Positions 1,162-26,321 of a stretch of DNA of 34,947 nt are shown here, in pieces. The stretch lies in UHGV virus genome UHGV-0108399; one strand, given 5' to 3'. A program made the position numbers and the translations under genes. The notes beneath the pieces are model-generated. The model was not told the origin of the DNA, ran no database searches, and saw only the letters and a program-made list of their open reading frames with translations. The first letter of the stretch is position 1, and each line of letters begins with the position of its first letter. The stretch is from a virus.

Positions 1162-1385
1162 GCTTTAACCTCCTGCACATCAACCGCATTCACCGCGCTA
1201 TTGTGTCTCACAGACTTAAGCGCCGCAATGCAGTCTGACTTGCAAATGCGATATGGGCTTTTAGGTTTATCTGGATTTATCTTTGCGGCCTGAAGTCGTC
1301 CACTTCGTATCCACTGCGTGATAGTGCCTTTGTCTACCTTCAGATACGACGCTGCCTCTTCACGAGTGAAGATTTCTTCTTCCAC
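1038..1385 (-). CDS. xis: Excisionase (P22 Xis-like, HTH)
   Basis: 115 aa directly upstream of int and overlapping its 5' end in another frame, as in P22; HTH-like segment TREEAASYLKVDKGTITQWIRSGRL. Confidence 0.75.
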   Translation of the reverse strand: MEEEIFTREEAASYLKVDKGTITQWIRSGRLQAAKINPDKPKSPYRICKSDCIAALKSVRHNSAVNAVDVQEVKACQSNYAVARGTAISSRQMDQELDALLKHRTKGKRKNFTIV

Positions 1386-1475
1386 CTGGAATCTCCATTT
1401 ATTGGATTGGTATTATTGCGGTAGGTCTGGATATCATTGAGCAATGAACAGGCCTCATCGAGTGTGAGGCTGTGG

Positions 1476-1820
1476 TTAGTCCTTGCGTAACTCGCTAATT
1501 CTTCTGTAAGTCTCTGGTGCTTTGTTCCCGTACGTCTTCATTTCAGACTTCAACAGAGCAACGAGTGAATCCCATTCGTTGAGGATTCCTTTGAATGCCG
1601 GAACGCGCTTTGCAACCTTGTCGAATGAATCTCTGATTTCTGGAATCTGCTCAACAAGTGCAACGCATCGTCTGAAATCGGCTGCGTCATGGGGAGCGCC
1701 GAAGTGATGACCATAGATATTCTTTTTCAGCCCACATGCGATTGAGGCAAGAGTTGCGCTACTGATGCCTACATCGCCAGTCGATTGCCATTTCAAAACC
1801 TTCATAGCCAAATCTGACAT
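1476..1820 (-). CDS. Hypothetical protein (114 aa; alternative start at 1847)
   Basis: ORF with GGAGA RBS about 6 nt before the ATG at 1820; the longer track ORF (start 1847) begins inside the upstream terminator hairpin. Confidence 0.5.
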   Translation of the reverse strand: MSDLAMKVLKWQSTGDVGISSATLASIACGLKKNIYGHHFGAPHDAADFRRCVALVEQIPEIRDSFDKVAKRVPAFKGILNEWDSLVALLKSEMKTYGNKAPETYRRISELRKD

Positions 1821-1834
1821 TTCTTGTCTCCAAT

Positions 1835-1862
1835 AAAAAACCGCCATCAGGCGGTTTGGTGT
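1835..1862 (-). terminator. Intrinsic terminator-like hairpin with T-run (AAACCGCC-TGAT-GGCGGTTT-TTTTATT)
   Basis: Perfect 8-bp stem and 4-nt loop followed by T-run on the minus strand; overlaps the stop codon of the small ORF 1847..2014. Confidence 0.5.
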
Positions 1863-2014
1863 TCTTTCAGTTCTTCAATTCGAATATTGGTTACGTCTGC
1901 ATGCGCTATCTGCGCCCATATCATCCAGTGGTTATAGCAGTCGTTGATGTCCTCTGCTTCGATAACTCTGTTGAATGGTTCTCCATTCCATTCACCTGTG
2001 ACTCGGAAGTGCAT
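1847..2014 (-). CDS. Small hypothetical protein (55 aa, MHFRVTGEWNGEPFNRVIEAEDINDCYNHWMIW...)
   Basis: Hand-translated ORF below the track size cutoff; GGAG RBS 7 nt upstream of ATG; TGA stop lies in the loop of the terminator hairpin. Confidence 0.35.
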   Translation of the reverse strand: MHFRVTGEWNGEPFNRVIEAEDINDCYNHWMIWAQIAHADVTNIRIEELKEHQTA

Positions 2015-2132
2015 TTATCATCTCCATAAAACAAAACTCGCCGTAGCGAGTTCAGATAAAAGAAATCCCCGCGAGTGCGAGGATTGTTATTCATTGCCGA
2101 TATTCACCTTTATCGCGAACATCTTTACCGGT

Positions 2133-2375
2133 TTATCTCCTTTGCATAGCACGTAATTTTTTCAGATGGTTCTCCTGTTCTGTTTCAGCCAGGATCTGGT
2201 GATATTCTCTGTGATCAATGTGTTCGAATAAATTATTGAATTTTCTGATGCACACTCTTCCAGGATAGCCATCCATCCTCTTGAAGAATACTGAGTGATC
2301 AGTACTACGAATGATTTTTACTGGATAGCCAGCGCTATCGGTGTATATCTGACCACGTTGAATCAGAGAGAACAT
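2133..2375 (-). CDS. Hypothetical protein (80 aa)
   Basis: Track ORF in the leftward early operon; no recognisable domain. Confidence 0.45.
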   Translation of the reverse strand: MFSLIQRGQIYTDSAGYPVKIIRSTDHSVFFKRMDGYPGRVCIRKFNNLFEHIDHREYHQILAETEQENHLKKLRAMQRR

Positions 2376-2441
2376 TCGTTTATCCCCAGATAAAAATATA
2401 GCAATACCAATTACATAAAATACTTCAGGCCAAGCATCATT

Positions 2442-3089
2442 TCACCCCTGCGGCGGTTCTGGCAGCGGCATCCAGTGTGATGGTATCCACGACGCACCAG
2501 GTATTACCCACCCATCATTAGCGTCAGGATGCCCCGGGATGTAAGTCGCCCATTTCATTCGCCAGTCACCTTTCCTGTCAAACTCCCTGGCAACAAGAAC
2601 GGCTGTTTTGGTATCCGGCATTCGCTCACTACAGCTTATCCAACCATCCGGAGTTACCGGATAGTTGCCAGCCAGCTCGTTCAACTTGTAAGTCTGGCTT
2701 ACAGGTTCGGCACCATGAAGCATGGCGGCACGGCAGGCATTCCAACCATCAACATAATCAAACGTATTGCCATCGTCTGGCTCGATTTCATCCGGCACTA
2801 CCGGCGCTGGTTGGGCGGTGACGTTGGAAAAGGCAGCACGCAACCCTGTCTTAATTTCCTCTACCTCATCAGCGCCTGGCGATGAATCTGACAGTGCGTG
2901 ATGGAATGCGTAAGCCATGTCGTCGTTGATTTCTACAGGCACACTATCAGCTTTGCGACGCTCCTGTAGCTCGCGCAGAGCCGCTGCAACATAATGACTA
3001 TTGTGCTGGTCAGCCCACAGAATGAGCCGAATCAACGTTGCATTTGAAACGTATTCGTCTGTTAGTTTGCTATTGGTAAAAATGGTCAT
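2442..3089 (-). CDS. DUF551-domain protein (Eaa-like early accessory protein)
   Basis: 215 aa; C-terminal W-rich region (WISCSERMPD ... WRMKW ... WMPLPEPP) resembles the DUF551 signature of lambdoid Eaa proteins; start overlaps the stop of the upstream gene (ATGA). Confidence 0.6.
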   Translation of the reverse strand: MTIFTNSKLTDEYVSNATLIRLILWADQHNSHYVAAALRELQERRKADSVPVEINDDMAYAFHHALSDSSPGADEVEEIKTGLRAAFSNVTAQPAPVVPDEIEPDDGNTFDYVDGWNACRAAMLHGAEPVSQTYKLNELAGNYPVTPDGWISCSERMPDTKTAVLVAREFDRKGDWRMKWATYIPGHPDANDGWVIPGASWIPSHWMPLPEPPQG

Positions 3090-3601
3090 GCCGCGTTTCC
3101 TTCTTTCTTATTAACAATTACACCGTCATATATTTCATTAAGGTGCCCTCTCAACTCCATGCGCCTTAATGCAGATAACATGTAATCGCATTCAACCTGC
3201 TTATTTCCAGTAAATGGCTTATCGTCAGGATTACCCCAACAGCAATTACCCTTGGGCCACCCATGTACTTTCCGTACTCTTCCGTTAACAACGTGAAGTA
3301 ATCCCCAGCCAGGTGGTAAATCCTCAATTGAAATAATTCCCGGCTCACTAATAAAGAATCGCCAGTCGCCCATTCCAAGAGACGGATTTTTACGAAAACG
3401 CTTTTTTCTATCTGCCAACAAGTCAGCACGAGAACATTTCGCCTCTATCAGGCATGATGCTGAATTTCTGAATCCCATAGCATCTGGCTGTTCTCCGGTA
3501 CTGGTTACAGCTATAAAGCGGTCATGAAAACAAACCTTGAACCCGTTGCGCTTAAGGAACTTGTACGCAATCTGACAGAGTTCGCGGTGTGTTAGCGCCA
3601 T
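3086..3601 (-). CDS. Putative PD-(D/E)xK-fold nuclease-like protein
   Basis: 171 aa; motif GEQPD ... CLIEAK matches the PD-x(n)-(D/E)xK arrangement of restriction-endonuclease-fold nucleases; translationally coupled to flanking genes. Confidence 0.45.
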   Translation of the reverse strand: MALTHRELCQIAYKFLKRNGFKVCFHDRFIAVTSTGEQPDAMGFRNSASCLIEAKCSRADLLADRKKRFRKNPSLGMGDWRFFISEPGIISIEDLPPGWGLLHVVNGRVRKVHGWPKGNCCWGNPDDKPFTGNKQVECDYMLSALRRMELRGHLNEIYDGVIVNKKEGNAA

Positions 3602-3602
3602 A

Positions 3603-3842
3603 TCACTCTCCTTTGATGCCAGTGTTTAGAACCTGACAAGCCTCTTTGAGCACCCAGTCAACAGCGTCTTTCCATGCTCCGGTTTCGGCTGGCGGATTCT
3701 CACGTTTTACCTGCTCATAGAAGCGCACTGCTTGAACCAGTCCTTCCGGCACTACTGGCGATGGCTGTTTAGCTTCTAAATCAGCAATTCTGTCAACCAC
3801 GGCATCGACAAGCTCTCTGTTAGTCATTCTTTTTCCGCTCAC
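3603..3842 (-). CDS. Hypothetical protein (79 aa, GTG start)
   Basis: Track ORF; start overlaps the stop of the upstream gene (GTGA). Confidence 0.45.
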   Translation of the reverse strand: MSGKRMTNRELVDAVVDRIADLEAKQPSPVVPEGLVQAVRFYEQVKRENPPAETGAWKDAVDWVLKEACQVLNTGIKGE

Positions 3843-4342
3843 TGGTTGCCTCCTTTGCGAAGCTCTGCAGCGAAATATACAGCTGCGGAAACAATAGCTG
3901 CATGTCGGTATTCACCATCAGAAAATAAAGAATCTCCCTTAAGTGCATTGACGATACTCTGATGATTTTTTGCCAGCATCTCCACGCCCTGCGCCCGTAC
4001 TTCAGCCAGAAAAGCATCGGTGGCGGGGGTGTCTGATTGCAGAGACTTTGCGCGATAGTCATTCCACCCTCTTGCATACATGTGATTAACTTGCACTCCA
4101 TCTTTTACGCAATATGCCTGCCCTCCACGGTTGATAACCTTGATTTCGTCCATAGCGCCAGACTTCAGCCCCGCATTCTCCGCTGCCAGCGCCGCGCACT
4201 TGGCCTGCGCTTCAGCAAATTTACGCACCAGATATTCAGCGTTTGTTTCGTTAACCTTTAAATCACTTGGGATGCATTTACCTTTCAGGAATCCATCCAT
4301 CTCAATTAGTGACATTTGTTTCATTTCTTCCCACTCCGCCAC
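3839..4342 (-). CDS. Hypothetical protein, coiled-coil N-terminus (possibly Ead/Ea22-like)
   Basis: 167 aa in the early-left accessory region; family assignment is a guess from composition and position. Confidence 0.5.
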
Positions 4343-4485
4343 ATCGCATTCAGATATTTGTTTTGATTTACTGATGGAAAAGAATTTCTCTTAAGCAATT
4401 CCTCTCTCGATGGCATTGGCTTTACGCGTTGGCGAATAATCATTTCTGCCGGAAGAATGCCGGGATTGTATGCAAGTCCTCTCAT
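4321..4485 (-). CDS. Small hypothetical protein (55 aa, [34 protein letters not shown]...)
   Basis: Internal ATG of track ORF 4321..4635 with GAGGA RBS, located just after the stop of ORF 4496..4789; the upstream part of the track ORF overlaps that gene in another frame. Confidence 0.3.
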
Positions 4486-4495
4486 GGTAAATTCC

Positions 4496-4789
4496 TCAGT
4501 CATTACTGATAGCGCCATAGCGTGAGCGGTAATTACGCAGGCGCGGGTCAATTTCAGGGAAGTGGGTATATGTGGCTTTGCGGAATGGTCGGATTGATGT
4601 CTGGTAAATTCGCTCGCGTTCTTCTTTCTCTGCAAGCCATATACAATGGCGAAATTCCTTTTCCTCTTTCGTTTCCTGCGGTAGCGACATTATCCGGTTG
4701 TAGTTTTTCCTGAATTTATCCAGCACCTCCGATACGGAATTGCCGGAACAGCGGCGCGCGTCATCCGCACCATACAGAGGCGCTGGCAT
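4496..4789 (-). CDS. Hypothetical protein, 97 aa; possible Abc2-like anti-RecBCD protein
   Basis: Strong RBS AGGAGAAAATC-ATG; lies immediately downstream of the recombination module (ssb, SSAP), the position and size of P22 abc2. Assignment is by synteny and size only. Confidence 0.5.
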
Positions 4790-4802
4790 GATTTTCTCCT
4801 GA

Positions 4803-5309
4803 TTAAATTGCGTGAATAGCGTGACGAGGGAAGGGGAGAGTTACTGGTGCAAAGGGTATATCGTCGTCAAAATCCATCGGAGGTTCGTTGTGTTGTGCTG
4901 GTGATGATTGCTGCTGTGGCTTCTGTGATTGCCTGCTGGCTGCTTGTTGTTTGCTGTCGCCAATGCCGCCAAGCATTTGCATCACGCCATTAATTCCGAC
5001 ATGAACCTCGGTTGTGTAACGGTCTTGCCCTGACTGGTCTTTCCACTTTCTGGTTCTCAGCATTCCCTCGAAATAAATCTGATCACCTTTTTTCACATAC
5101 TGCCCCACGACCTCAGCCAGTTTCCCGGATACAGCAACACGATGCCATTCAGTCAATTCCTTTTGCTCGCCAGTATTTTTATCTCGCCATTGTTCTGACG
5201 TGGCTATTGTCAGGTTAGCGAACGCTGTTCCTGATGGTGAGTATCGAACTTCCGGGTCTTGTCCTACCCGACCAAGGATAATCACCTTATTTACGCCTCT
5301 GCTTGCCAT
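4803..5309 (-). CDS. ssb: Single-stranded DNA-binding protein (SSB) with 15-aa extension after the DDDIPF tip
   Basis: OB-fold N-terminus ([36 protein letters not shown]), Q/S-rich linker, conserved [11 protein letters not shown] followed by [15 protein letters not shown] before the stop. Confidence 0.85.
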
Positions 5310-6017
5310 TTATGCCGCCTGTTTTAGTTCGTTAACTCTGATGTTCATTACCTGAACGCATTTAGCCTGCGCCTCCTCGTTGCCAGCCATTAATTGCCAG
5401 TCACGCTGATAACGCTCGATGAGTTTTTTCTTGTCAGTTTCTGTTGACGCATAATCGCTGAAGTCTTTCAGGATTTGTTCGCAGTCAACCGATGGAGATT
5501 TCTGGTTGGTATTTTCTGGTGATGGTTTGTTATCTGATGCTGGGATTGCCCATCCCGGCAGCGATGGAGGGAGCCAGCAAAATCCTGTTCCATCCTTCAG
5601 TTTTGCCCTGTGCCACCCCTGCTTTTTATCGAGAGATGTTTGTGCGAAACCTTCCTCAAGGTTATACAGATACCGACCGATTCCCCACTGAACGGCAGCA
5701 CGCTTCATTGCACCTGAACGACCACCTTTGACGGCTTCTACCTGCGTGTTTTCAGCAGCATCCCATTTGGTTACCCATTCGGAATCAATCTTGATTGATA
5801 TGCCGCATTCAACTCCGCCGTTGTTGGGAATATCGCGGTATTCATTGCGCCATCCTGCTTTGCCGCAAACATCGTCCAGGCGTTTCATGATTGCCCTGTT
5901 CGTGACATAAGCCAGCACCATAGCCCACACCTTTCCATCGCGTGTTTTACCGCTTTGCTGTATTCGCCATTCGATATCTTCAGGGCTGAATGGCTCATCG
6001 AATTTGTTCAAATCCAT
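5310..6017 (-). CDS. Rad52/22-family single-strand annealing recombinase (SSAP)
   Basis: 235 aa; conserved core (VECGISIKIDSEWVTKWDAAEN ... AMKRAAVQWGIGRYLYNL) resembles the Rad52/22 phage recombinase family; sits between kil/cIII and ssb where lambda has bet and P22 has erf. Confidence 0.65.
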   Translation of the reverse strand: MDLNKFDEPFSPEDIEWRIQQSGKTRDGKVWAMVLAYVTNRAIMKRLDDVCGKAGWRNEYRDIPNNGGVECGISIKIDSEWVTKWDAAENTQVEAVKGGRSGAMKRAAVQWGIGRYLYNLEEGFAQTSLDKKQGWHRAKLKDGTGFCWLPPSLPGWAIPASDNKPSPENTNQKSPSVDCEQILKDFSDYASTETDKKKLIERYQRDWQLMAGNEEAQAKCVQVMNIRVNELKQAA

Positions 6018-13287: not shown

Positions 13288-13665
13288 ATGGACGAATCAA
13301 GAAAGCAGTTTGAAGAAAGTTGGTTGCGACGTGGTGGCGAATCTTCAGACCTTATCCGTTACCCTGAAAATCACCATGAAATTGGCAGCGGTAATATTGG
13401 TGGTCAATACGTGATGGACGATGTTCAAGGCCACTGGCAAACGTGGCAGGCATCACGAGCAGCTATTGAACTGGATATCGACTGGCCCGAATCGAATGAC
13501 GACTTTTGGAAAGATGGTGAAGAAGGTGCTTATGCGATGGGTTATGAGGATGGGAGAGACAAAACGGTAATTGCAGTAATGAAAGCTATCAGAGCCGCTG
13601 GAATTAAAGAGAAGAATTTCGATGAAGCAAATATACATACTTCGCAACGAAGCAATCAGAAATAA
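13288..13665 (+). CDS. Hypothetical protein (125 aa)
   Basis: Track ORF upstream of ninB, overlapping its start by 44 nt. Confidence 0.45.
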   Translation: MDESRKQFEESWLRRGGESSDLIRYPENHHEIGSGNIGGQYVMDDVQGHWQTWQASRAAIELDIDWPESNDDFWKDGEEGAYAMGYEDGRDKTVIAVMKAIRAAGIKEKNFDEANIHTSQRSNQK

Positions 13666-14068
13666 CGCCATAGACGCCATTCTCTCACTACCCATCGACG
13701 AAAAGTCACCCCACGAAGTCCACGTTAGAGAACCCAAACGCAGCAAAGCGCAGAATGACCGTATGTGGCCGATGCTGAACGATGTTTCGCGTCAGGTGCT
13801 ATGGCATGGTCAACGGCTGGCGCCGGAAGACTGGAAAGACCTGTTCACTGCCCTGTGGCTTAAGACCAAAAAACTGGAGCAACGAAGTGTTCCTGGTATC
13901 GACGGTGGCGTTGTCATGCTTGGCGTGCGTACCAGCAAAATGCGAAAGGCCAGCATGACTGAGCTTATCGAAATCATGTTCTGGTTCGGCTCAGAGCGCA
14001 ACGTGCGGTGGAGTGATGACTCCCGGCGAGAGTATGAATGGTCACAACGAAAAGGGAGGGCGGCATGA
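13622..14068 (+). CDS. ninB: NinB (Orf-family recombination mediator)
   Basis: 148 aa; conserved segments ([19 protein letters not shown] ... WKDLFTA ... SERNVRWSD) resemble lambda NinB. Confidence 0.8.
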
Positions 14069-14247
14069 GACGACAGCGACGAAGTTTCACCGACATAATC
14101 TGCGAAAACTGCAAATACCTTCCAACGAAACGCTCCAGAAACAAACGCAAGCCAATCCCAAAAGAATCTGACGTAAAAACCTTCAATTACACGGCTCACC
14201 TGTGGGATATACGGTGGCTTAGAGAACGTGCGAGGAAAACAAGGTGA
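14065..14247 (+). CDS. ninE: NinE-like small basic protein (60 aa)
   Basis: [60 protein letters not shown]; GGAGGG RBS; ATGA overlap with the ninB stop. Nin-family name is from memory and may be the wrong member. Confidence 0.5.
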
Positions 14248-14414
14248 TTGACCCAAATCGAAGTTACGAACAAGAAAGCGTCGAGCGGGCTTTAACGTGC
14301 GCTAACTGCGGTCAGAAGCTGCATGTGCTGGAAGTTCACGTGTGCTCCGATTGCTGCGCAGAACTGATGAGCGATCCGAATAGCTCAATGTACGAGGAAG
14401 AAGACGATGAATGA
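14244..14414 (+). CDS. Small Cys-rich protein (56 aa; CxxC ... CxxCC), NinF-like
   Basis: Hand-translated: (V)[55 protein letters not shown]; GTGA overlap with the upstream stop; 3' end overlaps the start of the Rha gene. End coordinate approximate. Confidence 0.4.
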
Positions 14415-15132
14415 GTTAATAAATGGCAATGCCATCAAAATGACAAGCATTGAAATCGCTGAGTTGGTAGAAAGTCGCCATAGCAATGTAAAAGTATCCA
14501 TAGATAGATTGGTGAAACGTGGCGTTATCAAGCCTCCTGCATTGCAGCACACTAACATAATCAATGATTTAGGTGTTATTACCGGGAAGCGTGATTTCTA
14601 CGTCTTCGAAGGCGAACAAGGAAAGCGAGACAGTATTGTCGTTGTAGCCCAGTTGTCGCCGGAATTCACCGCTCGTCTTGTTGACCGTTGGCGAGAGCTT
14701 GAAGAAACTGCGGTTAATATCCCCAAAACGCTACCAGAAGCGTTGCGCCTTGCTGCTGATCTTGCTGAGCAGAAAATGCAACTGGAAAACCAGCTCGCAA
14801 TTGCCGCACCTAAAGTTGAGTTTGCCGATCGAGTTGGCGAGGCCAGCGGAATTTTGATTGGAAACTTTGCAAAGGTTGTTGGAATTGGTCCAAACAAACT
14901 GTTTGCGTGGATGCGCGATCACAAAATCCTTATTGCTTCAGGTTCCCGGCGCAATGTGCCAATGCAGGAATATATGGATCGCGGCTATTTCACAGTGAAA
15001 GAAACAGCGGTCAACACAAATCACGGAATACAGATATCGTTCACCACAAAAATCACCGGACGTGGTCAACAGTGGCTGACCAGAAAGCTGCTCGATAACG
15101 GAATGCTGAAAGTAACAGGGGAGGCTGCTTAA
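14407..15132 (+). CDS. Phage regulatory protein Rha / antirepressor (Rha N-domain + KilA-C/ANT C-domain)
   Basis: N-terminal IEIAELVESRHSNVKVSIDRL... resembles Phage_pRha; C-terminal FAKVVGIGPNKLFAWMRDHKIL... resembles the KilA-C antirepressor domain. Confidence 0.7.
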   Translation: MNELINGNAIKMTSIEIAELVESRHSNVKVSIDRLVKRGVIKPPALQHTNIINDLGVITGKRDFYVFEGEQGKRDSIVVVAQLSPEFTARLVDRWRELEETAVNIPKTLPEALRLAADLAEQKMQLENQLAIAAPKVEFADRVGEASGILIGNFAKVVGIGPNKLFAWMRDHKILIASGSRRNVPMQEYMDRGYFTVKETAVNTNHGIQISFTTKITGRGQQWLTRKLLDNGMLKVTGEAA

Positions 15133-15422
15133 TGGCTAACCTACGCAAAGAAGCACGCGGCAGAGAATGCCAGGTACGTATTTACGGCGTATGCAATGGC
15201 AATCCTGAAACTACAGTTCTGGCACATTACCGGATGTCTGGAATTTGCGGAACGGGAATGAAACCTGACGACCTGATCGGTGCATGGGCTTGTAGCGCGT
15301 GTCACGATGAAATCGACCGACGCACCCATAATCTCGACAACAAAGACGCCAGACTTTACCACCTCGAAGGCGTGATCAGGACGCAGGCGATACTGCTGAA
15401 GGAGGGGAAGATTAAGTCATGA
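15132..15422 (+). CDS. YbcO-like DUF1364 Cys-rich protein (putative nuclease)
   Basis: 96 aa; RECQVRIYGVCNGNPETTVLAHYR ... CSACHDEIDRR resembles DLP12 prophage YbcO; sits immediately upstream of rusA, as in DLP12. Confidence 0.7.
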   Translation: MANLRKEARGRECQVRIYGVCNGNPETTVLAHYRMSGICGTGMKPDDLIGAWACSACHDEIDRRTHNLDNKDARLYHLEGVIRTQAILLKEGKIKS

Positions 15423-15781
15423 ACGAATATCAGTTTGTGCTTCCTTACCCGCCGTCGGTGAATACCTACTGGCGAAGACGGGGAAGCCAATACTACATCA
15501 GCGATAAAGGCCAGAAATACCGAAAAGACGTTCAGCAAATCATCCGCCAACTCAAGTTAGACATTTTCACCAAATCACGACTCCGCATAAAAGTCATCGC
15601 AGACGTTCCAGACTCCCGCCGCCGCGACCTCGATAACATCCTGAAAGGTTTACTCGACTCCCTTATCCATGCCGGATTTGCGGAAGACGACGAGCAATTC
15701 GATGACATTCGCGTAATTCGTGGTGTGAAAGTACCAGGCGGACGGCTTGGAATAAAAATCACCGAACTGGAGAACGTATGA
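15419..15781 (+). CDS. rusA: Holliday junction resolvase RusA
   Basis: 120 aa; LPYPPSVNTYWRRRG ... DVPDSRRRDLDNILKGLLDSLIHAGF ... GGRLGIKITE resembles E. coli RusA. Confidence 0.85.
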   Translation: MNEYQFVLPYPPSVNTYWRRRGSQYYISDKGQKYRKDVQQIIRQLKLDIFTKSRLRIKVIADVPDSRRRDLDNILKGLLDSLIHAGFAEDDEQFDDIRVIRGVKVPGGRLGIKITELENV

Positions 15782-17402: not shown

Positions 17403-17862
17403 TCAACGTAAGGCGTTCCTCGATATGCTGGCGTGGTCAGAGGGAACAGATAACGGACGACAGAAAACCAGAAATCACGGTTATGACGTCATTGTTGGCG
17501 GAGAGCTATTCACTGATTACTCAGATCACCCTCGCAAACTTGTCACGCTAAACCCCAAACTCAAATCAACAGCAGCCGGACGTTACCAGCTTCTTTCCCG
17601 TTGGTGGGATGCCTATCGTAAGCAGCTTGGCCTGAAAGACTTCTCTCCGAAAAGCCAGGACGCTGTGGCACTGCAACAGATTAAAGAACGTGGCGCTTTA
17701 CCGATGATTGATCGCGGTGATATTCGTCAGGCTATCGACCGTTGCAGCAATATCTGGGCTTCACTGCCTGGCGCTGGTTATGGTCAGTTCGAGCATAAGG
17801 CTGACAGCCTGATAGCAAAATTCAAAGAAGCAGGCGGAACGGTCAGAGAGATTGAGGTATGA
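17386..17862 (+). CDS. R: Endolysin (lambda R lytic transglycosylase)
   Basis: 158 aa, near-identical to lambda R ([42 protein letters not shown]...). Confidence 0.9.
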
Positions 17863-25026: not shown

Positions 25027-26321
25027 TGGCATTAAATGAAGGTCAACTGGTCACGTATGCTCTGGATGAAATCATCGAAACCGTCCAGAACCTGACGCCA
25101 ATGGCGTCCAAAGTGACAAAATACACCCCTCCGGCAGAATCCATGCAGCGTTCAAGCAACACCGTGTGGATGCCTGTTGAGCAGGAAGCGCCAACCCAGA
25201 CTGGCTGGGATTTAACTGGCAAAGCTACTGGGATTCTGGAACTCTCCGTGAAATGCAACATGGGTGATCCGGATAACGATTTCTTCGAGCTTCGTGCAGA
25301 TGACCTGCGTGATGAGCGTTCTTACCGTCGCCGCATCCAGGCATCCGCCAAAAAACTGGCGAATAACATTGAGTCAGCAATTGCCAAACAGGCAACCGAA
25401 ATGGGCTCACTTGTTGTTCACGATACCCGCGCAATTGGTCCATCTACTGGCCTGTCTGGCTGGGATTTTGTGTCTGATGCAGAGCGCCTGATGTTCTCCC
25501 GTGAGCTAAACCGCGATATGGGCATCAGTTACTTCCTGAACCCTGACGATTACCGCAAAGCAGGCCGCAACCTGGTAGATGGAGACATCTTTGGGCGCGT
25601 TCCTGAAGAAGCGTATCGCAACGGTACTATTCAGCGTCAGATTGCTGGCTTTGATGAAATTCTTCGCTCACCGAAACTTCCGGCAGTTACCAAGTCAACC
25701 GCTACTGGTGTAACTGTTTCTGGTGAGCAGAAGTTTAAGCCGCAGGCATACACCCTTGATACCGATGGTAACAAAGAGAACGTCGACAACCGTGTTGCAA
25801 CGGTGACCGTATCCTCCACCACCGGATTTAAGCGCGGCGACAAAATCAGCTTCACTGGTGTGAAATTCCTGTCTCAGATGGCGAAGAACGTGCTGACTGA
25901 TGACGCGACTTTCTCAATCACCCGTGTGATCGATGGTACTCACATCGAAATCACGCCGAAGCCGATTGCGCTTGATGACGCTTCACTGACAAAAGAAGAG
26001 AAGGCTTACGCTAACGTAAATACTTCTCTTGCTAATAACACTCCGGTAAACGTTCTGAACGTGGCAACAACCACCGCTAACGTGTTCTGGGCTGATGACT
26101 CAATCCGTCTGCTTTCTCAGCCGATCCCGGTAACCCATGAACTGTTTGCTGGCATGAAAACGTCTTCCTTCAGCATTCCAGGTATTGGTGTTAACGGCAT
26201 CTTCGCAACGCAGGGTGATATCAACACTCTGTCTGGTAAGTGCCGTATTGCTGTGTGGTATTCAGCATGTGCTGTACGACCAGAGGCAATTGGTGTTGGT
26301 CTGCCTAACCAGACCGCGTGA
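25026..26321 (+). CDS. Major coat protein (P22 gp5-like)
   Basis: 431 aa; extensive similarity to P22 coat protein throughout (MALNEGQ ... [10 protein letters not shown] ... IAVWY ... [13 protein letters not shown]). Confidence 0.9.

What the first reader, a model, noticed from the sequence alone, without database searches (positions are those of the whole stretch)
2442..3601. Coupled PD-(D/E)xK-like nuclease and DUF551 protein in the int-proximal accessory region
ORF 3086..3601 carries a PD ... IEAK arrangement consistent with a restriction-endonuclease-fold nuclease. It is translationally coupled (overlapping ATGA stop-start) to a DUF551 protein with a tryptophan-rich C-terminal domain. Both lie in the variable accessory region between xis and the recombination genes, where lambdoid phages keep anti-defence and host-takeover functions. 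A nuclease paired with an uncharacterised partner here is a candidate for an undescribed defence, anti-defence or DNA-processing module.
Basis: partly seen in the sequence, partly recalled or inferred. Interest (0 to 1): 0.55.

Follow-up and report, generated by a model that had tools for sequence, protein, structure and literature searches.

The report
Phage MmcB-like nuclease, shuffled DUF551 neighbour
The prophage gene at 3086-3601 encodes an uncharacterised DNA-cutting enzyme distantly related to the bacterial repair nuclease MmcB, but the DUF551 gene overlapping it is a freely shuffled neighbour, so the two do not form a dedicated two-gene system.

Summary
Two minus-strand genes, 3086-3601 (171 aa) and 2442-3089 (215 aa), overlap by ATGA. 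The first carries P39-D40...I52-E53-A54-K55. The second ends in a tryptophan-rich Pfam DUF551 domain (E 1e-20).

The "coupled module" reading is not supported.
- Only 39 of 81 distinct overlapping downstream partners carry DUF551. Others include RusA, a methylase and TraC.
- Only 4 DUF551 proteins appear among the neighbours at 36 diverse loci.
- The same DUF551 domain sits at 4,877 places in E. coli genomes, against 1,297 for the nuclease.
- Four-base overlaps are routine in this phage.

Most likely this is a stand-alone, early-expressed endonuclease for damaged or branched DNA; that function is inferred. It is a new member of a known kind, of modest interest.

The parts
3086..3601 (-). Gene for a 171-aa MmcB-like PD-(D/E)xK nuclease. 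It has no Pfam model; PHROG 9263/631, function unknown.
3437..3493 (-). Predicted catalytic core, residues E37 to K55: E37, P39-D40, E53-x-K55. It continues into the conserved S57-R58-x-D60-F61-x-x-D64.
   Evidence: Codons read. D40 and D60 are invariant. E37, P39, E53, K55, S57, F61 and D64 are at least 90% conserved in 75 diverse homologues. D40 lies just before strand 41-45, and E53 within strand 48-54 with K55 just after it, in the model. These residues align to D39 and E53-C-K55 of MmcB proteins.
3606..3613 (-). Shine-Dalgarno-like AAGGAGAG, 4 nt upstream of the nuclease ATG, inside the end of the upstream gene.
   Evidence: Read. The upstream TGA is at 3603-3605, followed by one base and then the ATG at 3599-3601.
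3086..3089 (-). ATGA stop/start overlap between the nuclease gene and the downstream gene.
   Evidence: The same overlap is present in 102 of 115 related loci, whatever the downstream gene is.
2442..3089 (-). Gene for a 215-aa mosaic 'ea'-type protein: a helical N-terminal module, a GWNACRAAML module, an AEPV-type linker and a DUF551 C-terminal domain.
   Evidence: PHROG 12449 covers residues 1-152. This exact protein was seen on only 7 contigs, against at least 1,000 for the exact nuclease. Modular shuffling is shown.
2448..2645 (-). DUF551 domain (residues 149-214). It is Trp-rich and ends in HWMPLPEPPQ.
   Evidence: Pfam PF04448, E 1e-20. The domain is more than 90% conserved while joined to many unrelated N-terminal parts, including a dATP/dGTP pyrophosphohydrolase and a metallophosphoesterase.

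Best explanation
Gene 3086-3601 encodes a stand-alone, metal-dependent DNA endonuclease of the PD-(D/E)xK superfamily. It belongs to a large branch of the MmcB-like (PF06319/DUF1052) lineage that is carried by mobile elements and is not covered by Pfam. It is transcribed as part of the early-left operon after infection or induction. E37, D40, E53 and K55 would bind the metal and cut a phosphodiester bond. The most likely substrates are damaged or branched DNA, such as stalled forks, cross-linked DNA or recombination intermediates, in support of phage replication and recombination. The downstream 215-aa DUF551 gene is a separately shuffled mosaic accessory gene. Its overlap with the nuclease gene reflects the tight packing of the operon and a conserved recombination junction, not a dedicated partnership. 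Shown here: the genes, the motif and its conservation, the predicted fold, the homology to MmcB, and the lack of a fixed partner. Inferred: catalytic activity, the substrate and the biological role.
For: Fold and homology:
- 3dnx is the DUF1052/PF06319 structure within the PD-(D/E)xK superfamily (PMC3424549). Its relatives are named MmcB family DNA repair proteins.
- The family profile hits 3dnx at E 5e-5. hhalign against MmcB proteins gives 98.2%, E 4e-14, over 124 columns that include D, ExK, SRxDFxxD, LPxxxGLL and the ARRL helix.
- Viral predicted structures named MmcB-like are among the top fold matches.
- The catalytic residues are conserved in 75 diverse homologues.
- MmcB is an SOS-regulated PD-(D/E)XK endonuclease that protects Caulobacter from mitomycin C and cisplatin (PMC9578287).

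Context across mobile elements:
- Next to primase in Cba120, after two helicases in SSP002, in a recombination cluster in X29, and after NinB in phiARM81mr.
- Neighbours elsewhere include methylases, NinB, NinG and RusA.
- In the window it lies downstream of the Rad52-like annealing protein and SSB, with no promoter-like site in 1300-5000 (0 found against 5.2 expected).

Independence from DUF551.
Against: No biochemical or genetic data exist for any member of this phage branch; every source calls it hypothetical. The window protein does not reach any Pfam model, PF06319 included. The model is only moderately confident, and weak over residues 115-171. The window already encodes RusA, YbcO and NinB, so a recombination role could be redundant. 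About half of the E. coli variants do have a DUF551 partner. A Vibrio phage has DUF551 directly upstream. A looser functional link therefore cannot be excluded.
Confidence: 0.55

Rival explanations
1. The nuclease and the DUF551 protein form a dedicated two-gene module, with the DUF551 protein acting as an adaptor or regulator of the nuclease.
For: The ATGA overlap is kept in 102 of 115 loci. 39 of 81 distinct overlapping partners carry DUF551. The Ea22-like / nuclease / DUF551 gene order recurs in P7 and Stx phages. Vibrio phage X29 has a DUF551 gene immediately upstream of its homologue.
Against: 42 of the 81 partners lack DUF551; they include RusA, a DNA methylase, TraC, a dATP/dGTP pyrophosphohydrolase and Ead/Ea22. 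Only 4 of 147 neighbour proteins at 36 diverse loci are DUF551. Lytic-phage and conjugative-element copies have no DUF551 neighbour. The exact nuclease is on at least 1,000 contigs, while this partner is on 7. Near-identical DUF551 domains on at least 1,000 and 264 contigs have no nuclease within 3 kb. There are 4,877 DUF551 places against 1,297 nuclease places in E. coli genomes. Four-base overlaps also occur at 3839-3842, 15419-15422, 17859-17862 and 26318-26321.
Confidence: 0.1
2. The nuclease alone is a host-takeover or anti-defence factor of mobile elements. It would, for example, destroy a host defence nucleic acid or host DNA early after entry.
For: It lies in the variable early accessory region. 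It occurs in temperate phages, lytic phages, P1/P7 phage-plasmids and conjugative transfer operons, between TraV and TraC. DNA methylases, which often serve anti-restriction, are the most frequent neighbour class, with 8 hits among the 147 neighbour proteins at the 36 loci.
Against: There is no match to PADLOC or any annotated anti-defence family. The only characterised relative is a repair nuclease. The lytic-phage copies sit inside replication modules.
Confidence: 0.2
3. It is a Holliday-junction resolvase of the Hjc type that serves the phage recombination system.
Against: The window and many relatives already carry RusA or NinG. RusA is at 15419-15781 in the window, directly downstream of the nuclease in L020 and in X29. 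NinG is near the gene in L024. The match to MmcB is far stronger than the match to Hjc.
Confidence: 0.1
4. It is the endonuclease of a restriction-modification-like or exclusion system carried by the prophage.
For: Restriction endonucleases are prominent among the fold matches. Methylase genes are adjacent in several loci: L011, L028, phage 431E45.1 and phage Jeremy.
Against: No methylase is among the neighbours in the window, nor in most loci. The gene sits in a promoter-poor early lytic operon, so it is unlikely to be expressed in lysogens. There is no PADLOC hit. The protein is small, with no evident DNA-recognition domain.
Confidence: 0.05

Closest known systems
MmcB-like DNA repair protein family (Pfam PF06319, formerly DUF1052; structure 3dnx, SPO1766 of Ruegeria pomeroyi; Caulobacter MmcB)
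   Different: The window protein does not reach the Pfam model at E<=1; only 8 of 75 family members give weak hits. It has an extra conserved E37 and H5, and an insertion at about residues 113-133. It is carried by phages, phage-plasmids and conjugative elements across several bacterial phyla, whereas MmcB is a chromosomal, SOS-regulated gene found mostly in alpha-proteobacteria (PMC3424549). No role in cross-link repair has been shown.
Archaeal Holliday junction resolvase Hjc (PF01870)
   Same: It is a small PD-(D/E)xK nuclease with the same D...ExK arrangement. There are weak sequence and fold matches.
   Different: The similarity is much weaker than to MmcB, and no family member reaches significance. 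The phages concerned usually carry RusA or NinG as well.
DUF551 (PF04448) proteins: P22 EaA/Eaa, E. coli CPS-53 YfdS, Ea22 variant V2 of Stx phages
   Same: The 215-aa protein has a clear DUF551 C-terminal domain. As described for Ea22 variants, it behaves as a portable domain on mosaic proteins of the lambdoid early region (PMC10834534).
   Different: The N-terminal two thirds of this protein is a rare combination of modules (7 contigs). No function is known for the domain. YfdS has been linked only to oxidative-stress tolerance and to multicopy suppression of over-initiation (PMC4776307).

Membership tests
PD-(D/E)xK nuclease superfamily | Restriction-endonuclease-like alpha/beta core fold | tested here: met
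PD-(D/E)xK nuclease superfamily | Conserved catalytic D ... (D/E)xK on consecutive strands | tested here: met
   D40 is invariant and E53 and K55 are at least 90% conserved in 75 homologues. D40 precedes strand 41-45; E53 lies in strand 48-54 and K55 just after it.
PD-(D/E)xK nuclease superfamily | Metal-dependent phosphodiester cleavage | not testable with these tools
   This requires purified protein and active-site mutants.
MmcB-like (Pfam PF06319) | Match to the family model above Pfam's gathering score | tested here: not met
   No Pfam family matches the window protein at E<=1. 8 of 75 relatives give only weak hits, best E 2.9e-4.
MmcB-like (Pfam PF06319) | Homology detectable by profile-profile comparison, with shared extended motifs | tested here: met
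   hhalign of A2 against A6 gives 98.2%, E 4.1e-14, over 124 columns. The family profile hits 3dnx at E 5.2e-5.
MmcB-like (Pfam PF06319) | Protects against mitomycin C or cross-link damage; SOS-regulated | not tested
   This is known only for Caulobacter MmcB (PMC9578287). Here the gene sits in a phage early operon, and no LexA box was examined.
Hjc Holliday junction resolvase (PF01870) | Significant match to the family model or structure | tested here: not met
DUF551 (PF04448) | Match above the gathering score | tested here: met
   74.8 bits against a cut-off of 22, residues 149-214, covering profile positions 1-68 of 68.
Dedicated two-gene system (defence or anti-defence operon) | The two components co-occur across genomes | tested here: not met
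   39 of 81 partners carry DUF551. 4 of 147 neighbour proteins at 36 diverse loci are DUF551. DUF551 occurs without the nuclease. Place counts are 4,877 against 1,297.
Known anti-phage defence systems (PADLOC-DB 2.0) | Match to any component model | tested here: not met
   There are no families at E<=1 for either protein or for the two upstream ORFs.
Type II restriction-modification | Cognate methyltransferase encoded next to the nuclease | tested here: not met
   None of the window neighbours scanned is a methylase. Methylases account for only 8 of the 147 neighbour proteins at the 36 diverse loci.

The most novel reading that the evidence does not exclude
The 171-aa protein represents a very large, unrecognised mobile-element branch of the MmcB nucleases. 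This branch would give phages, phage-plasmids and conjugative elements their own tolerance to DNA damage or cross-links. For example, it could clean up the prophage genome when induction is triggered by the same DNA damage that harmed it. In enterobacterial phages, the shuffled DUF551 and other C-terminal cassettes downstream might be interchangeable targeting domains that act with it.
Probability: 0.15. Interest if true: 0.55.

Novelty: new member of a known kind. Interest (0 to 1): 0.3.

Why it matters
A gene labelled "hypothetical protein" can now be read as an MmcB-like PD-(D/E)xK nuclease. The gene is present in about one in six complete E. coli genomes, including Shiga-toxin phages and P1/P7 phage-plasmids. 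The family has more than 3,000 clusters at 50% identity and no Pfam model, so a new family model would improve phage and plasmid annotation. It would also correct the "adenylosuccinate synthase" label seen in several phage records. If the repair role is right, some phages carry their own means of dealing with damaged or branched DNA during induction. The negative result matters too: adjacency and an ATGA overlap in lambdoid early operons do not by themselves indicate a functional pair.

Tried and rejected
Dead ends:
- Sequence searches of the nuclease against Pfam, NCBIfam and PADLOC gave nothing. The single sequence against the PDB gave only noise.
- PHROGs gave only families of unknown function, plus a weak "DNA repair protein" hit at E 0.003.
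- The structure prediction of the 215-aa DUF551 protein failed (mean pLDDT 48, pTM 0.29). The available homologues of the domain are more than 76% identical. I therefore ran no fold search on it.
- A profile of the DUF551 alignment found no solved structure.
- The afdb50 fold library was unavailable.
- Literature searches found no experimental work on this phage nuclease.

Ideas considered and rejected:
- That a 171-aa gene upstream of DUF551 in Salmonella nin regions was the same nuclease. tblastn shows it is unrelated, and the equal length is a coincidence.
- That the nuclease replaces the missing exonuclease partner of the Rad52-like annealing protein. The same gene co-occurs with exo-bet-gam in Stx1 phage AU5Stx1.
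- That the ATGA overlap signals a specific partnership. It persists with unrelated downstream genes.

Full report
**1. Observation**

The window is a P22/HK620-like lambdoid E. coli prophage. Its best matches are phages HZ41, IME10 and mEp043, and it carries integrase, xis, O and primase-helicase replication genes, and P22-type structural genes.

On the minus strand, ORF 3086..3601 encodes 171 aa and ORF 2442..3089 encodes 215 aa. The + strand reads tcat at 3086-3089, which is ATGA on the coding strand, so the downstream ATG overlaps the upstream TGA. Both genes have Shine-Dalgarno-like sequences: AAGGAGAG at 3606-3613 and AAGGAA at 3097-3102.

The first protein contains P39-D40 and I52-E53-A54-K55. 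The second matches Pfam DUF551 over residues 149-214 (E 1e-20, 74.8 bits against a cut-off of 22), and that stretch has six tryptophans. The genes lie between xis and the SSB and Rad52-like genes at 4803-6017.

**2. The nuclease**

*Standard searches.* The protein matches nothing in Pfam, NCBIfam or PADLOC. In PHROGs it matches only families of unknown function, plus a weak "DNA repair protein" hit. Every public source calls it hypothetical, although the exact sequence occurs on at least 1,000 contigs.

*Family size and conservation.* A profile of 26 relatives found 3,245 cluster representatives at E<=1e-3 and 2,386 at E<=1e-10. In 75 of these, at 34-59% identity to the window protein, D40 and D60 are invariant. 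H5, E37, P39, E53, K55, S57, F61, D64, K67, R70, G76, P96, W99-G100-L101, E137 and R146 are at least 90% conserved. The short motif is therefore not a chance match.

*Predicted fold.* The AlphaFold2 model is moderately confident (mean pLDDT 72, weakest after residue 115). D40 sits just before strand 41-45, E53 lies within strand 48-54, and K55 follows it directly. This is the canonical PD-(D/E)xK geometry.
- The next matches are SdaI, AF2093, AF1548, an XisH-like protein, Can2, PaqCI, N.BspD6I, NucS, FokI and Hjc.

*Link to MmcB.*
- 3dnx is the structure of DUF1052/PF06319 in the PD-(D/E)xK census (PMC3424549). Its close relatives are named "MmcB family DNA repair protein".
- The 75-sequence profile hits 3dnx at E 5.2e-5.
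- A profile-profile comparison with 25 MmcB proteins gives 98.2% probability, E 4.1e-14, over 124 columns. The aligned columns include D, ExK, SRxDFxxD, LPxxxGLL and the C-terminal ARRL helix.
- Predicted viral structures labelled MmcB-like are among the best matches in BFVD.

The protein is thus a remote but genuine homologue of MmcB. It lies outside the current Pfam model; only 8 of 75 relatives give weak PF06319 hits, and 16 give weak Hjc hits.

**3. The partnership**

I collected 34 loci from one genome per species and 80 viral contigs with near-identical copies.

*The overlap is generic.*
- In 102 of 115 loci the stop of the nuclease gene overlaps an ATG as ATGA.
- The gene that starts there varies enormously, with 90 distinct products among the 103 read out.
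- These products are built from a few alternative N-terminal modules, AEPV-type linkers, middle modules and alternative C-terminal cassettes.

*DUF551 is only one of several partners.*
- Of 81 distinct complete partners, 39 carry DUF551.
- Most of the rest have no Pfam domain. One each carries RusA, a DNA methylase, TraC/TraG, a dATP/dGTP pyrophosphohydrolase or Ead/Ea22.
- Among 147 neighbours (two on each side) at 36 diverse loci, DUF551 appears 4 times, Ead/Ea22 5 times, DNA methylases 8 times in all, NinB 3 times and NinG twice.

*DUF551 is independent of the nuclease.*
- The same DUF551 domain, more than 90% identical, is joined to many unrelated N-terminal parts.
- Its two most abundant carriers, on at least 1,000 and 264 contigs, have no nuclease homologue within 3 kb.
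- In 5,426 complete E. coli genomes, the nuclease gene is in 928 genomes at 1,297 places, 248 of them on plasmids. The DUF551 segment is in 2,410 genomes at 4,877 places.
- The exact 215-aa partner of this window is on only 7 contigs.

*Overlaps are routine here.* Four-base overlaps also occur at 3839-3842, 15419-15422, 17859-17862 and 26318-26321.

The two genes do not co-occur as a unit.

**4. Context and likely function**

The family is found in several kinds of mobile element:
- Temperate lambdoid phages.
- P7 (Upf89.0) and many E. coli plasmid records (248 of the 1,297 places).
- Stx phages, with the gene order Ead/Ea22, nuclease, then a DUF551 gene.
- Kuttervirus Cba120, directly upstream of the primase gene.
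- Vibrio phage SSP002, after DNA polymerase and two helicases.
- Vibrio phage X29, in a cluster with exonucleases, RusA, Dam and SSB, and with a DUF551 gene just upstream.
- Aeromonas phage phiARM81mr, after NinB.
- Next to methylases in several phages.
- F-like transfer operons, between TraV and TraC.

In the window, the region 1300-5000 has no promoter-like site (0 found against 5.2 expected). This fits expression as part of the long early-left operon rather than in the lysogen.

The one characterised relative, Caulobacter MmcB, is an SOS-induced PD-(D/E)XK endonuclease that protects against mitomycin C and cisplatin (PMC9578287).

My best explanation is a stand-alone, early-expressed endonuclease acting on damaged or branched DNA in aid of phage replication and recombination (confidence 0.55). 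Its activity, substrate and role are all inferred.

I consider four rivals:
- An anti-defence or takeover nuclease (0.2).
- A true nuclease-DUF551 module (0.1).
- An Hjc-type resolvase (0.1). This is weakened because RusA or NinG is present in the same phages.
- A restriction-like nuclease (0.05).

**5. The DUF551 protein**

Published work treats DUF551 as a portable domain. It is found in an Ea22 variant of Stx phages, in YfdS of prophage CPS-53 and on a MazZ-type enzyme, and its function is unknown (PMC10834534, PMC4776307). My attempt to model the 215-aa protein failed (pLDDT 48). No solved structure matches the domain. Nothing here shows what it binds.

**6. Verdict**

The proposed coupled module is not supported.

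This is a new member, and effectively a new unmodelled family, of a known kind. It is useful for annotation and is a reasonable target for biochemistry, but it is not a surprising system. Interest is 0.3.

Noticed in passing
L120 3489-4148 (phiARM81mr), L121 3492-4133 (Pseudomonas phage Jeremy), hit H86 (Salmonella phage AR2819): Homologues of this nuclease are annotated as 'adenylosuccinate synthase' in several deposited phage genomes. Given the MmcB-like fold, this looks like a propagated misannotation.
   Followed up: partly
L025 3412-7083 (Pantoea sp. BAV 3049); L031 1076-4312 (Alteromonas gracilis): The nuclease family also sits inside F-like conjugative transfer operons. In L025 it lies between TraV and TraC, the position that TraR occupies in the F plasmid. 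In L031 it lies right after TraC. In Stx phages, a DksA/TraR-like gene lies just upstream of the Ea22-nuclease genes (L002).
   Followed up: partly
window 2442-4342 and related loci L037-L116: The genes around the nuclease are built from shuffled short modules: N-terminal MITITKERLL.../MTTLTDKEMI.../MTIFTNSKLT..., then ...GWNACRAAML..., AEPV-type linkers and varied C-terminal cassettes. Recombination junctions fall right after the shared start codon. The nuclease gene stays 99-100% identical while its downstream neighbour has dozens of forms.
   Followed up: partly
window 4803-6017: The recombination module consists of a Rad52/Rad22-family annealing protein (5310-6017) and an SSB (4803-5309). 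No recognisable exonuclease or Abc-type partner was found among the ORFs scanned.
   Followed up: no
window 13622-15781: The nin region carries NinB (13622-14068), an Ant/Rha-type antirepressor (14407-15132), a YbcO putative nuclease (15132-15422) and RusA (15419-15781). The last two overlap by 4 bases.
   Followed up: no
window 1300-5000: There are no sigma-70 promoter-like sites on either strand (0 against 5.2 +/- 2.2 expected). There are six terminator-like hairpins (2.8 expected), including a bidirectional one at 1838-1857 and two at 2034-2085, all between small genes downstream of the DUF551 gene.
   Followed up: no
window 3603-4342: The two ORFs upstream of the nuclease (79 aa, GTG start, and 167 aa) overlap by 4 bases. 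They match only PHROGs of unknown function. In P7 and Stx phages this position holds an Ead/Ea22-like gene, so they may be diverged or split Ea22-type modules.
   Followed up: no
L124-L128 2141-2656 (Salmonella prophage nin regions): A different 171-aa protein ending in ...AWNACRAAMLNGGKS lies upstream of a DUF551 gene. It is unrelated to the nuclease despite the identical length, which makes it an easy trap for length-based comparison.
   Followed up: yes
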